64,000 bases of DNA from Escherichia coli. Its GTDB lineage: Bacteria; Pseudomonadota; Gammaproteobacteria; Enterobacterales; Enterobacteriaceae. The DNA lies in assembly GCF_024298765.1 (NCBI RefSeq), contig NZ_CP101210.1. One strand, written 5' to 3'. The position numbers were made by a program, and so were the translations under genes. The notes under the pieces were generated by a model. The model did no database searches. It was not told the origin of the DNA and saw nothing but the letters and a program-made list of their open reading frames with translations. Positions 39,590-42,582 of this stretch are shown here, in pieces (the first letter of the stretch is position 1; every line of letters begins with the position of its first letter).

Positions 39590-40420
39590 CTACGCAGAGC
39601 GAGACGCTGTCGCCCCTGCACGTGGTGGCAGGGCAAATGCCACCAGCGCCGGGATGAGATAAATAAACCAGACGGCGACTTCGCTGACACTTGGCGCTTC
39701 CTGATAGCCAAAAATCCCTTCCATCAGCGTGCCAAACAGCGAGTGAGTTGACAGCACCGCGCTCATATCGAAGGCGATTTCCTGAAAGTGGTTCCACAAT
39801 CCGGCTTCATGAAATGCGCGAATGGCACCAGCTGCCAGCCCAGCGGCGACGAAGAGAATAAACAGACTGGTCCATTTAAAAAATGCACCAAGATTGAGGC
39901 GAATACCGCCCCAGTAGAGCAGGAAGCCGAGCACCACGGCTGTAGCAAGACCGAGCATTGCACCCAGCGGCGGCCAGATCCCGACATCTTGTTGAAATGC
40001 CGCCAGCAGGAAAAAGACCGACTCCAGCCCTTCCCTTGCAACGGCAAAAAAGACCATCATCACCAGCGCCCAGCCATGATGATTTCCACGCTGCAATGCG
40101 CTATCGACTGCCTGTTCCAGTTGCACTTTGACGTTGCGCGACACTTTACGCATCCAGAAAACCATCCAGGTAAGGATCACCACGGCGATCACCGCCACGA
40201 TACCTTCAAACAGTTCCTGTTCTTTTTGCGGGAATTCGCCGGTGGTTTCGTTAATGAAGATACCCAAGCCCAGGCACAACGCAGCGGCAAGCAACACGCC
40301 AATCCACATCACACTAATCCATCGGCCTCGCTGGGTACGCTTAAGATAGCTGGCAATCAAACTGACAATCAGCGCGGCTTCAAGTCCTTCGCGCAACATA
40401 ATGAGAAACGGAACAAACAT
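39590..40420 (-). CDS. efeU: Ferrous iron permease EfeU (FTR1 family), intact
   Basis: ORF 39590..40429 (-); start MFVPFLIMLREGLEAALIVSLIAS...; two REGLE-type motifs (REGLEAA, REGLESV); uninterrupted frame of about 276 aa. Confidence 0.9.
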   Translation of the reverse strand: MFVPFLIMLREGLEAALIVSLIASYLKRTQRGRWISVMWIGVLLAAALCLGLGIFINETTGEFPQKEQELFEGIVAVIAVVILTWMVFWMRKVSRNVKVQLEQAVDSALQRGNHHGWALVMMVFFAVAREGLESVFFLLAAFQQDVGIWPPLGAMLGLATAVVLGFLLYWGGIRLNLGAFFKWTSLFILFVAAGLAAGAIRAFHEAGLWNHFQEIAFDMSAVLSTHSLFGTLMEGIFGYQEAPSVSEVAVWFIYLIPALVAFALPPRAGATASRSA

Positions 40421-40477
40421 GCCACCCACCCTTAAACGTTTTTCTGAGTCAATCTATGCAAAGAAAAGTAAATCGCA

Positions 40478-40497: not shown

Positions 40498-41073
40498 GGC
40501 AAAGAAAAATACAAGCGGAATGTTTATAAAATGATGTTGGAATGTAAACAAAGAGAGGTAATGGCAGGGGATATAAACGATTATTCCAGGTACAAAGATG
40601 GGATTGTTTACAACGAGCCATGTGTTCTTGCCAGATGCCGCGTAAACGCCTTATCCAGCCGACAAAACTGTCCAGACTCAATGCATCAGAGCTTCCATGT
40701 AAAACTGATAAGCGGGTGTATCAAGCAATTTCGTCCATCCGCGATTATCAAATCTAACTTTTTGCCCGGAACATAATAACAGCTCGGGTGTTGGTGGCGT
40801 CAAAGTCGCTGAAGCGTTCCCCGAAGGCCGGGGCAGCCCACATGGATGTGGGCTGAGGGCGCGTCTTACAGGACATTACCTCGCGCCCGACCCGGTAGCC
40901 GAAGGGGATAAGCTGAAGGTACCGCGCAGCGGCGATTTTGTTCGCCAGAGCCCGGGGTGCAGGGGGTGGCGGCGATTGGCCGCCCCCTGCACCATTCAAT
41001 TTATATGGCGAGGCACATTAAGGGAGCGCAACCCGCTGCTGAAGCCAAACAAAACCGCCGCAGGCTAAGTCCC

Positions 41074-42582
<1,509 letters not shown>

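What the first reader, a model, noticed from the sequence alone, without database searches (positions are those of the whole stretch)
40780..41000. GC-rich, strongly palindromic element between putP and efeU
Within an otherwise AT-rich spacer there is a ~220 bp GC-rich block with several perfect stems: gcccacatggatgtgggc at about 40846-40856, and ggtgcagggggtggcggcgattggccgccccctgcacc at about 40957-40993 (an 11 bp stem). Paired ccgaaggccgggg / cccggtagccgaagggg segments flank it. It is not a typical REP unit, and the long hairpin lacks the U-tract of an intrinsic terminator. It could be a structured RNA or a distinct repeat family.
Basis: seen in the sequence. Interest (0 to 1): 0.4.

Follow-up and report, generated by a model that had tools for sequence, protein, structure and literature searches.

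The report
Decayed TwoAYGGAY-type structured repeat copy
The GC-rich block between putP and efeU is a slightly damaged copy of a ~276-base repeat scattered through E. coli and its relatives; its fold, kept by many compensating mutations, matches a known but untested RNA motif (TwoAYGGAY) predicted to bind the global regulator CsrA.

Summary
Window 40778-41032 (+ strand, antisense to putP and efeU) is GC-rich (0.63-0.66 against 0.32-0.45 in the spacer) and holds the stems described.

It is not specific to putP. It is one copy of a dispersed repeat found in 5425 of 5426 complete E. coli genomes (median 3 places, up to 9). Enterobacter, Lelliottia, Citrobacter, Klebsiella, Silvania, Leclercia and Kluyvera carry about 10-15 copies each.

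Intact copies are a uniform ~276 nt. Across 100 copies, a 70-pair, 12-helix structure is 89.5% paired, against 36-45% when the partners are slid. 41 pairs show compensatory changes. G.U outnumbers A.C by 124 to 19, which marks the window + strand as the folding strand.

Two internal hairpins carry hexaloops within C-A-N-G-G-A-N-G. Exactly two occur on the sense strand in 91 of 95 copies, and none on the antisense strand in 94 of 95.

Intact copies match Rfam TwoAYGGAY (RF01731) over the whole model at 28-42.7 bits, below the gathering score of 43. This family shares clan CL00106 with CsrB and was predicted in 2015 to sequester CsrA.

The window copy has decayed: the second loop is broken and an 11-nt deletion removed one arm of the last helix. 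K-12 carries a 124-nt deletion allele. Transcription and CsrA binding are untested.

The parts
40778..41032 (+). The repeat copy itself (255 nt here; ~276 nt in intact copies). A weakly conserved tail runs on to about 41055.
   Evidence: Aligns end to end with copies at dusC-yohP, lysO-aqpZ and alx-sstT in E. coli and with copies in other genera. Boundaries.
40795..40808 (+). 5' strand of the long closing helix P1 (P1a 40795-40799, P1b 40802-40808). It pairs with 40933-40947.
   Evidence: Column-to-coordinate map. Covariation is seen at pair 52/186 (CG 69, UA 25, UG 6). P1a shows TGGCG/CGCCA, TGGCC/GGCCA and CCGGC/GCCGG between clades. This helix appears in the centroid fold of the window copy.
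40933..40947 (+). 3' strand of P1 (GCGATTTTGTTCGCC).
40809..40815 (+). Helix Pa 5' strand (CTGAAGC), pairing with 40912-40918 (GCTGAAG). It contains a tandem G.A/A.G at 40811-40812 and 40915-40916.
   Evidence: Pair 58/166 has three pair types (GC 37, AU 33, CG 25) and pair 55/169 has CG 66, UA 27, UG 7. G and A at the tandem positions are invariant or nearly so. Tandem GAs are reported for TwoAYGGAY (PMC4333381).
40818..40832 (+). 5' strands of helices Pa2 (40818-40822) and Pc (40826-40832). They pair with 40904-40908 and 40891-40900.
   Evidence: helices 5-7, 84-96% of cells paired; pair 64/159 is UA 55, CG 31.
40834..40855 (+). Hairpin 1: 8-10 bp stem with loop sequence CATGGATG (40841-40848). 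This is a C-G-closed hexaloop ANGGAN and is intact here.
   Evidence: Inverted repeat I4. All 8 pairs show compensatory changes in the family (helix 8). Loop 8-mers tabulated over 95 copies all fit CANGGANG except one.
40857..40888 (+). Hairpin 2: the outer 7-bp stem GGGCGCG/CGCGCCC is intact. The inner stem-loop (40865-40879, CTTACAGGACATTAC) is damaged. A 1-nt deletion and substitutions destroy the CANGGANG loop that other copies carry (TTACAGGGATGTTA).
   Evidence: 3 of 5 inner pairs broken. The family loop consensus is ACAGGGATGT / GCATGGATGC.
40922..40932 (+). Hairpin Pd, CCGC-GCA-GCGG: a C(GNA)G triloop at the three-way junction with P1 and Pa.
   Evidence: 99.8% of cells paired and 3 of 4 pairs with compensatory changes (helix 10).
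40956..40993 (+).
   Evidence: I1. 8 of 10 pairs show compensatory change, for example pair 215/242 with AU 43, CG 35, UA 21 (helix 11).
41022..41028 (+). Orphan 3' arm (GGGAGCG) of the terminal helix Pg. Its 5' arm (GCGCTCC, inside GCGCTCCCTGC) was lost by an 11-nt deletion between CCCTGC repeats at 40990/40991.
   Evidence: The K-12 allele and all other copies keep the 11 nt. Map. Pg is 97.7% paired with 3 covarying pairs in the family (helix 12).
40816..40833 (+). Direct repeat GTTCCCCGAAGGCCGGGG. Its partner is GTTCGCCAGAGCCCGGGG at 40940-40957. These are the end points of the 124-nt deletion that gives the short K-12 allele.
   Evidence: Repeat D3. Window versus K-12 alignment. Both alleles are common in E. 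coli.

Best explanation
The block is one partly decayed copy of a dispersed, ~276-nt structured repeat of Enterobacteriaceae. The core of this repeat is a TwoAYGGAY-type RNA fold (Rfam RF01731, in the same clan as CsrB). Shown: it is a repeat family. One strand (the window + strand, antisense to putP and efeU) carries a multi-helix structure kept by compensatory substitutions. A long P1 and a helix with tandem G.A pairs lead to a junction holding two hairpins. The loops of both hairpins keep the sequence C-A-N-G-G-A-N-G. A 3' domain of two further helices follows. Inferred: the element acts as RNA. When transcribed, its two ANGGAN hexaloops, about 32 nt apart, are bound by the two RNA-binding faces of a CsrA dimer. 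Each copy would then be a small CsrA-binding (titrating or recruiting) module. Also inferred: the putP-efeU copy is a relic. It has lost the second loop and one arm of the last helix, and the K-12 allele has lost both loops. It is therefore probably weak or inactive and has no specific role in putP or efeU expression.
For: Repeat family:
- 5425 of 5426 E. coli genomes hold a match, with a median of 3 places and up to 8-9.
- Other copies lie at dusC-yohP, lysO-aqpZ and alx-sstT.
- 120 or more loci were found in Citrobacter, Enterobacter, Lelliottia, Silvania, Klebsiella, Leclercia, Kluyvera, Pseudescherichia and Pseudocitrobacter.
- Length is a uniform 270-280 nt.

Structure:
- RNAalifold finds 25 of 38 pairs with compensatory change.
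- An independent column-pair scan recovers the same helices.
- My 70-pair structure is 89.5% paired against 36-45% when slid. 41 pairs and 823 cells carry double changes. The covariation score is 0.319 against 0.04-0.08 when slid. 0 of 500 shuffles reach it.

Strand:
- G.U cells number 124 against 19 A.C cells.
- The + strand folds 12 kcal/mol better than the - strand.

Loops:
- Exactly two CANGGANG occur on the sense strand in 91 of 95 copies, and none on the antisense strand in 94 of 95.
- The N positions vary freely and are not complementary to each other.

Known family:
- Eight copies (two of them in locus L061), from E. coli, other Escherichia and Citrobacter, hit RF01731. Seven align to the whole model (1-168/168) and the eighth is cut by the end of its contig. 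All are on the predicted strand, at 28.4-42.7 bits with E down to 0.0012.
- RF01731 shares clan CL00106 with CsrB.
- Gardner and Eldai 2015 report two strong CsrA-motif matches and tandem GAs in TwoAYGGAY and predict CsrA sequestration (PMC4333381).
- Weinberg 2010 describes two AYGGAY loops and an often very long P1, with several copies per genome in Psychromonas (PMC2864571).

Decay of this copy.
Against: - No copy reaches the Rfam gathering score: none of 15 loci at the gathering threshold, and the window copy gives no TwoAYGGAY hit even at E <= 10.
- Sequence-only comparison with Psychromonas members finds nothing (nhmmer), so the link rests on structure plus loop motifs.
- No sigma-70 promoter or intrinsic terminator is associated with the element. 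No UvrY/GacA box lies upstream in 142 copies.
- Orientation relative to co-directional flanking genes is mixed, 25 antisense to 15 sense.
- The supplementary tables of the E. coli K-12 CsrA CLIP-seq study that are held list no CLIP support for dusC, ybjE or efeU, and do not mention yohP, aqpZ or putP (PMC5694010). I suspect, but did not check, that reads mapping to several repeat copies were discarded in that study.
- CsrA binding to any TwoAYGGAY RNA is not reported in the library I searched.
- The conserved C(GNA)G triloop and the association with other DNA repeats would also fit a structure that matters in single-stranded DNA.
- Two independent deletions at this locus show weak or no selection on this copy.
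Confidence: 0.55

Rival explanations
1. It is a selfish, non-autonomous DNA repeat (MITE- or foldback-like). Its structure is selected because mobility needs it in a single-stranded DNA or other nucleic-acid intermediate. The GGA loops are then recognition sites for an unknown mobilising protein, not for CsrA, and there is no RNA function in the host.
For: - Copy number varies from 1 to 9 among E. coli genomes and reaches about 10-15 in other genera. Copies within one genome are 90-97% identical, and assemblies break at them.
- In Citrobacter and Lelliottia, copies occur as head-to-head inverted pairs whose outer ends form the terminal inverted repeat GGTTCCGTTCACCTC/GAGGTGAACGGAACC.
- The element is fused to, or exchanged with, BoxC-like repeats.
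- It is found mostly between convergent genes and rarely between divergent ones, 41 against 5.
- No promoter or terminator is present.
- The conserved C(GNA)G triloop is a classic stable DNA mini-hairpin (own knowledge).
- Copies decay by deletion at this locus.
Against: - No recurrent flanking protein-coding family or master copy was found among about 140 copies.
- No target-site duplication was seen. The polymorphic sites examined are segment replacements, not clean insertions.
- The invariant loop letters match the CsrA consensus exactly, with free N positions.
- The core matches an Rfam RNA family placed with CsrB.
- This rival is compatible with, rather than exclusive of, an RNA role.
Confidence: 0.3
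2. It is a 3'-end element of putP on the - strand: the putP terminator, or a REP-like stabiliser that blocks 3' exonucleases.
For: - The element starts 42 nt downstream of the putP stop codon, taking the last base of the GCGCAAC core (41032); the weakly conserved tail reaches to about 19 nt from it. Its reverse complement would lie in a read-through putP transcript.
- The - strand also folds well, with z = -4.0.
- In the family, the 3' end of the element faces the 3' end of the neighbouring gene in 90 of 117 cases, at a median distance of 106 nt.
Against: - No terminator-like site lies on the - strand in the block.
- The long hairpin is followed on the - strand by CCCGGGCTC, not a U tract.
- Compensatory changes, the G.U excess and the loop motifs point to the other strand.
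- The same element lies at unrelated loci in both orientations, for example dusC-yohP in BL21 against strain 317.
- K-12 lacks half of the element without any known putP defect (own knowledge for that last point).
Confidence: 0.08
3. It is a chance cluster of palindromes in GC-rich spacer DNA with no family or structure behind it.
For: None beyond the fact that GC-rich sequence folds easily.
Against: Thousands of homologous copies, z = -4.8 against shuffles, and covariation far above the slid and shuffled controls.
Confidence: 0.01

Closest known systems
TwoAYGGAY RNA motif (Rfam RF01731; Weinberg et al. 2010, PMC2864571)
   Same: - Two adjacent hairpins whose terminal loops read A-Y/N-G-G-A-Y/N.
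- A closing helix, a stem with tandem G.A pairs and a long outer P1.
- Several copies per genome.
- No consistent position as a 5' leader.
- The full Rfam model aligns to intact enterobacterial copies on the predicted strand.
   Different: - Scores are 28-42.7 bits, below the gathering score of 43. The window copy gets no hit at all.
- No primary-sequence similarity to Psychromonas members is detectable.
- The enterobacterial element is longer (~276 nt against a 168-nt model). It has an extra 3' domain of two helices and a conserved C(GNA)G hairpin.
- It often occurs in head-to-head pairs or fused to BoxC-like repeats.
CsrB / CsrC / RsmX-Y-Z CsrA-sequestering sRNAs (Rfam clan CL00106)
   Same: GGA motifs are presented in hairpin loops that match the CsrA consensus CANGGANG. 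Rfam puts TwoAYGGAY in the same clan as CsrB.
   Different: - There are only two sites per element, against about 9-22.
- There is no UvrY/GacA box, no recognisable promoter and no terminator.
- It is a multi-copy dispersed repeat rather than a single regulated gene.
- CsrA binding is untested.
Enterobacterial intergenic repeats (REP/BIME, ERIC/IRU, BoxC, 'RSA')
   Same: Dispersed, extragenic and palindrome-rich. Mostly downstream of genes. Variable between strains. Physically associated with BoxC-like repeats.
   Different: - It is much longer and has a multi-branched, strand-specific structure with covariation.
- It is not a REP: the only REP-like sequence in the spacer is at 40624-40660.
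- 'RSA' was annotated in the old K-12 record as 150/151 bp with 6 copies (PMC5172473). K-12 has only 3 places for this element, although its putP-efeU copy is 143 nt. Identity with RSA could not be checked, because the primary descriptions are not held in the paper library.

Membership tests
TwoAYGGAY RNA (RF01731) | Two neighbouring hairpins with AYGGAY in the terminal loops | tested here: met
   Family: exactly two CANGGANG on the sense strand in 91 of 95 copies. Window copy: the first loop is intact (CATGGATG, 40841-40848). The second is broken (ACAGGACAT).
TwoAYGGAY RNA (RF01731) | Junction closed by a helix with tandem G.A pairs and a long outer P1, supported by covariation | tested here: met
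   Helices P1, Pa (with G.A/A.G) and Pc. The Rfam consensus aligns over model positions 1-168.
TwoAYGGAY RNA (RF01731) | Score at or above Rfam's curated gathering threshold (43 bits) | tested here: not met
   Best scores are 42.7 bits (L044), 33.8, 30.9, 30.2, 29.9, 29.8, 28.9 and 28.4. None of 15 loci passes at gathering. The window copy gives no hit at E <= 10.
CsrA-sequestering sRNA (CsrB/Rsm type) | GGA motifs in hairpin loops matching the CsrA-binding consensus | tested here: met
   The consensus itself comes from the literature (PMC4333381, and own knowledge of the SELEX and RsmE work).
CsrA-sequestering sRNA (CsrB/Rsm type) | Discrete gene with its own (UvrY/GacA-dependent) promoter and an intrinsic terminator | tested here: not met
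   No promoter or terminator by scan. The UvrY/GacA box is found upstream of 0 of 142 copies.
CsrA-sequestering sRNA (CsrB/Rsm type) | Physical binding of CsrA and relief of CsrA-mediated repression | not testable with these tools
   The supplementary tables of the K-12 CLIP-seq study that are held show no entry for the loci that carry the element. This is weak negative evidence only.
REP/BIME | ~35-40-nt imperfect palindrome of the REP consensus | tested here: not met
   The only REP-like match (naRNA4 model, 27.2 bits) is at 40624-40660, outside the block.
RSA repeat of E. coli K-12 | 150/151-bp unit with 6 copies in K-12 | tested here: inconclusive
   The K-12 putP-efeU copy is 143 nt, but MG1655 has 3 places, not 6. 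No RSA sequence was available.
Intrinsic terminator | GC-rich hairpin directly followed by a U tract on the transcribed strand | tested here: not met
   None on the - strand (the putP sense strand). The + strand hairpin 40956-40993 is followed by ATTCAATTTA only because of the 11-nt deletion. Other copies have GCGCTCC... there instead.
MITE / foldback transposable element | Terminal inverted repeats plus target-site duplication, with clean filled and empty sites | tested here: inconclusive
   Terminal inverted repeats are seen only for head-to-head pairs. No duplication was seen. The alx-sstT and dusC-yohP alleles differ by segment replacement. No associated transposase was found.

The most novel reading that the evidence does not exclude
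Enterobacteriaceae carry a proliferating, multi-copy family of CsrA-binding RNA modules. This would be a dispersed counterpart of CsrB/CsrC, sometimes arranged as divergent pairs offering four sites. Together the copies would buffer or locally recruit CsrA. E. coli would retain only a few copies, some of them relics such as this one. Analyses that discard multi-mapping reads could have hidden the family (my suspicion; not checked).
Probability: 0.25. Interest if true: 0.7.

Novelty: new variant of a known kind. Interest (0 to 1): 0.45.

Why it matters
TwoAYGGAY is an orphan RNA motif. Its only functional proposal, CsrA sequestration, is not reported as tested in the library I searched. It was described from gut metagenomes, Clostridia and a few gamma-proteobacteria such as Psychromonas.

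A structurally matching family, with textbook CsrA hairpins, sits in nearly every E. coli genome and in 10-15 copies in Enterobacter, Citrobacter and Lelliottia. That makes the hypothesis directly testable in the best genetic systems available.

It also raises the question of how a 276-nt structured element with no gene of its own spreads. For annotation, it explains a recurrent GC-rich, hairpin-rich block in enterobacterial spacers that current pipelines leave blank. It also explains strain-to-strain length differences in the putP-efeU, dusC-yohP and alx-sstT spacers.

Tried and rejected
- **Rfam scan of the window copy alone.** It gave nothing for the block. Only intact copies from other loci revealed TwoAYGGAY.
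- **Naming it 'RSA'.** Three literature searches and two look-ups by PubMed id gave only a table of length and copy number. The K-12 copy count does not fit.
- **Full-text search for fragments of the sequence.** No paper was found.
- **Phage origin.** No match in 50,697 phage records. The 'plasmid' matches are mostly chromosomes or chromosome fragments filed as plasmids.
- **Hidden gene or master copy.** Clustering of 1230 flanking ORFs found only spurious frames through the element and orthologous neighbours.
- **Small ORF after the SD-like AAGGAG...ATG at the 3' end of E. coli-type copies.** The peptides differ from locus to locus (MRD*, MMNQHITTS*, MMKLNKRF...), so it is not coding.
- **Promoter, terminator and UvrY/GacA box searches.** All negative.
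- **Sequence-profile link to Psychromonas TwoAYGGAY.** Negative.
- **CsrA CLIP-seq supplement.** No support at the K-12 loci.
- **Search for a clean empty site and target duplication at alx-sstT.** The alleles are replacements involving BoxC-like repeats.
- **Own covariance model.** I did not build one of the full element, because a 276-position calibration would exceed the tool's time limit.

Full report
**1. Observation**

The window is Escherichia coli. putP occupies 41074-42582 and efeU 39590-40429, both on the - strand. The 645-nt spacer is AT-rich (GC 0.32-0.45) except for 40800-41000 (GC 0.63-0.66).

- CAGCCCACAT/ATGTGGGCTG lies at 40834-40855.
- The long hairpin at 40956-40993 has 15-nt arms and one mismatch.
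- The 'flanking' segments ccgaaggccgggg and cccggtagccgaagggg pair with each other around the two inner hairpins.

The + strand folds at -124.9 kcal/mol (z = -4.8 against dinucleotide shuffles). The - strand folds at -112.8 kcal/mol (z = -4.0).

**2. It is a dispersed repeat, not a putP feature**

- Megablast of 40760-41010 finds 17,462 places in 5425 of 5426 complete E. coli genomes, with a median of 3 per genome and up to 8. The inner 123 nt alone gives up to 9.
- Other E. coli copies lie between dusC and yohP, lysO and aqpZ, and alx and sstT.
- Klebsiella and Citrobacter have copies at unrelated loci. No phage record matches.
All but one record are named as Enterobacteriaceae: Citrobacter, Enterobacter, Lelliottia, Silvania, Leclercia, Kluyvera, Klebsiella, Pseudescherichia, Pseudocitrobacter and four Escherichia species. 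The exception is a metagenome bin labelled Sporobacter that carries a Klebsiella-type copy, which I take to be contamination. These genomes commonly hold 10-15 copies, and assemblies often break at them.
- Intact copies are remarkably uniform, with 270-280 nt in 96 of 103 copies.

**3. The structure is conserved by compensation, on one strand**

In an alignment of 100 copies (A2), RNAalifold predicts 38 pairs, 25 with compensatory double changes. A blind scan of all column pairs recovers the same helices.

I assembled a 70-pair, 12-helix model:
- a long closing helix P1;
- a helix Pa with a conserved tandem G.A/A.G;
- two further helices leading to a junction that holds two hairpins;
- a small C(GNA)G hairpin at the P1/Pa junction;
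- a 3' domain made of the long hairpin Pf and a terminal helix Pg.

| Measure on A2 | Model | Control |
|---|---|---|
| Cells forming standard pairs | 89.5% | 36-45% with partners slid by 1-3 columns |
| Pairs with changes on both sides | 41 | 14-25 when slid |
| Cells with changes on both sides | 823 | 83-184 when slid |
| Covariation score | 0.319 | 0.04-0.08 when slid |
| Shuffles reaching the observed score | 0 of 500 | |

Several pairs show three different Watson-Crick types. Pair 58/166 has GC 37, AU 33, CG 25. Pair 215/242 has AU 43, CG 35, UA 21.

G.U cells outnumber A.C cells by 124 to 19. The strand that folds is therefore the one aligned with the window + strand, which is antisense to putP and efeU.

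**4. The loops**

Both inner hairpins end in a hexaloop closed by C-G, reading C-A-N-G-G-A-N-G. Among 95 clean copies, 91 have exactly two such 8-mers on the sense strand, and 94 have none on the antisense strand. The two N positions vary freely and are not complementary to each other, giving CATGGATG, CAGGGATG, CATGGACG, CAGGGAAG and others.

This is the CsrA/RsmE recognition consensus, (A/U)CANGGANG(U/A). The second hairpin of E. coli copies (UACAGGGAUGU) reproduces the SELEX consensus RUACARGGAUGU. Both consensus sequences are quoted from my own knowledge of the literature. The two GGA triplets are about 32 nt apart, which I recall to be within the range a CsrA dimer can bridge.

**5. Link to a known family**

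The window copy gives no useful Rfam hit, but intact copies do. RF01731 'TwoAYGGAY RNA' aligns on the predicted strand in eight copies, two of them in locus L061. Seven alignments cover the whole model (1-168/168); the second L061 copy is cut off by the end of its contig (model 1-137).

| Copy | Bits |
|---|---|
| L044 | 42.7 |
| L082 | 33.8 |
| L003 | 30.9 |
| L061 | 30.2 and 29.8 |
| L056 | 29.9 |
| L045 | 28.9 |
| L005 | 28.4 |

The gathering score is 43, and none of 15 further loci passes it.

- Weinberg et al. 2010 named the motif for its two AYGGAY loops. They note an often very long P1, occurrence in a human gut metagenome, Clostridia and gamma-proteobacteria, and judge it probably an RNA but not cis-regulatory. 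Their alignment opens with at least five copies from one Psychromonas genome.
- Gardner and Eldai 2015 found two strong CsrA-motif matches and tandem GAs in TwoAYGGAY. They predicted a CsrA-sequestering sRNA and called validation work in progress.
- Rfam files RF01731 in clan CL00106 together with CsrB.
- A sequence-only profile of my alignment does not find the Psychromonas sequences, so the relationship rests on architecture and loop motifs.
- The enterobacterial element is also larger than the Rfam model. It adds the Pd hairpin and the Pf-Pg 3' domain.

**6. State of the window copy**

Mapping the model onto the window shows that P1, Pa, Pa2, Pc, hairpin 1, the outer stem of hairpin 2, Pd and Pf are all intact. 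Two parts are damaged:
- The inner part of hairpin 2 reads CTTACAGGACATTAC instead of TTACAGGGATGTTA, so the loop motif is lost.
- An 11-nt deletion between CCCTGC repeats removed the 5' arm of Pg.

The K-12 allele keeps those 11 nt but lacks 124 nt between the direct repeats GTTCCCCGAAGGCCGGGG and GTTCGCCAGAGCCCGGGG. That deletion removes both hairpins. Both alleles are common. 2333 records are at least 99% identical to the short allele, including MG1655 and ATCC 8739. Other strains carry a full-length copy with flanks identical to K-12. Independent deletions argue that this locus is under little or no selection.

**7. Context and mobility**

- Elements lie mostly between convergent genes (41). 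Fewer lie between co-directional genes (25 antisense, 15 sense), and they are rare between divergent genes (5). The 3' end is typically about 100 nt from a gene's 3' end.
- In Citrobacter and Lelliottia they come as head-to-head pairs of two diverged subtypes (about 72% identity). The pair members are separated by a ~65-nt AT-rich spacer in Citrobacter (wider, about 150-230 nt, in Lelliottia), and their outer ends form an inverted repeat.
- In Enterobacter and Silvania a BoxC-like repeat is fused just after the 3' end.
- At alx-sstT, E. coli alleles carry either this element or one or two BoxC-like repeats.
- At dusC-yohP the element occurs in opposite orientations with unrelated flanks.
- No target duplication, transposase or other recurrent neighbouring gene was found.
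- No sigma-70 promoter, terminator or UvrY/GacA box is associated with the element.
- The SD-like AAGGAG...ATG at the 3' end of E. coli-type copies is followed by unrelated short frames.

**8. Interpretation**

Shown: this is a real, strand-specific, covarying structured repeat whose core has the TwoAYGGAY architecture and two CsrA-consensus loops.

Inferred: it acts as RNA and binds CsrA. This copy, antisense to its neighbours and doubly damaged, is a relic with no specific role for putP or efeU.

The main rival is a selfish DNA repeat whose fold matters only for its own spread. It cannot be excluded and may coexist with an RNA role.

Weak negative evidence is that the supplementary tables of the K-12 CsrA CLIP-seq study that are held list nothing at the three K-12 loci. 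K-12 has only one intact copy, and I suspect, but did not check, that reads from repeats were filtered out.

The putP-terminator reading is rejected on strand, on the lack of a U tract and on the presence of the element at many other loci.

**9. Verdict**

This is a correct and useful observation of moderate interest. It is not categorically new, because it is a variant of a catalogued but functionally untested RNA motif. It does extend that motif to E. coli and its relatives as a multi-copy element, and it makes the CsrA hypothesis directly testable.

Noticed in passing
window 40624-40660 (-): A REP-like palindrome (GGCTGGATAAGGCGTTTACGCGGCATCTGGCAA) in the same spacer. It gives a partial, sub-threshold hit to Rfam naRNA4 (27.2 bits against a gathering score of 59.5).
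   Followed up: partly
window 39590-40429 (-): efeU is an intact ORF here (279 aa, annotated as functional in the identical strain 7/2). In K-12 MG1655 efeU is annotated as a pseudogene.
   Followed up: partly
L010 1390-1960, L131 280-700, L132 280-625 (E. coli alx-sstT spacer): The spacer has three alleles. One carries the TwoAYGGAY-like element, one carries two BoxC-like repeats (K-12-like) and one carries a single BoxC-like repeat (O6). They differ by segment replacement with no clean insertion junction.
   Followed up: partly
L003 2397-2768 and L005 2382-2767 (E. coli dusC-yohP spacer): The element is present in opposite orientations relative to dusC in BL21 and in strain 317. The flanking spacer sequence is unrelated in the two strains.
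   Followed up: partly
L009 1148-1753; L043, L050, L103, L127 and others (Citrobacter); L066-L073 (Lelliottia): Elements occur as head-to-head inverted pairs of two diverged subtypes (~72% identity). The central spacer is ~65 nt, AT-rich and partly conserved in Citrobacter, and wider (about 150-230 nt) in Lelliottia. Each pair forms a ~600-bp unit with terminal inverted repeats and offers four CANGGANG loops.
   Followed up: partly
L028-L039 (Enterobacter asburiae) and L083-L095 (Silvania): about 10-60 nt after the element's 3' end: A BoxC-like sequence (CCCCTCACCC..AACCCTCTCCC....GGAGAGGG) is fused at a fixed distance downstream of the element, giving a composite repeat.
   Followed up: no
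L096 625-2252 and L097 1424-3074 (Kluyvera): Two copies of the element are interrupted at the same internal position (~98/100) by an insertion of about 1.39 kb. This is probably an insertion sequence with a preference for that site.
   Followed up: no
L007 1493-1769 and 1930-2206 (Klebsiella pneumoniae): Two copies lie in direct tandem with a 437-nt period and 98.6% identity.
   Followed up: no
L016 5701-5789; L082 1189-1373 (Citrobacter): C4 antisense RNA, its a1/b1 target and an isrK-like RNA (prophage immunity region) lie 200-500 nt from elements. This may be one orthologous locus seen in two species.
   Followed up: no
L068 8526-8617 (Lelliottia): A match just above gathering score to Rfam RF02902 (Aggregatibacter sRNA 22; 40.7 bits against 39.8) lies inside the spacer between the two members of a head-to-head pair.
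   Followed up: no
Supplementary Data 2 of PMC5694010 (K-12 csrA study): The efeU' pseudogene transcript is listed as increased in the csrA mutant (log2 about 1.27 for ribosome footprints and RNA), with no CLIP support. This may well be indirect.
   Followed up: no
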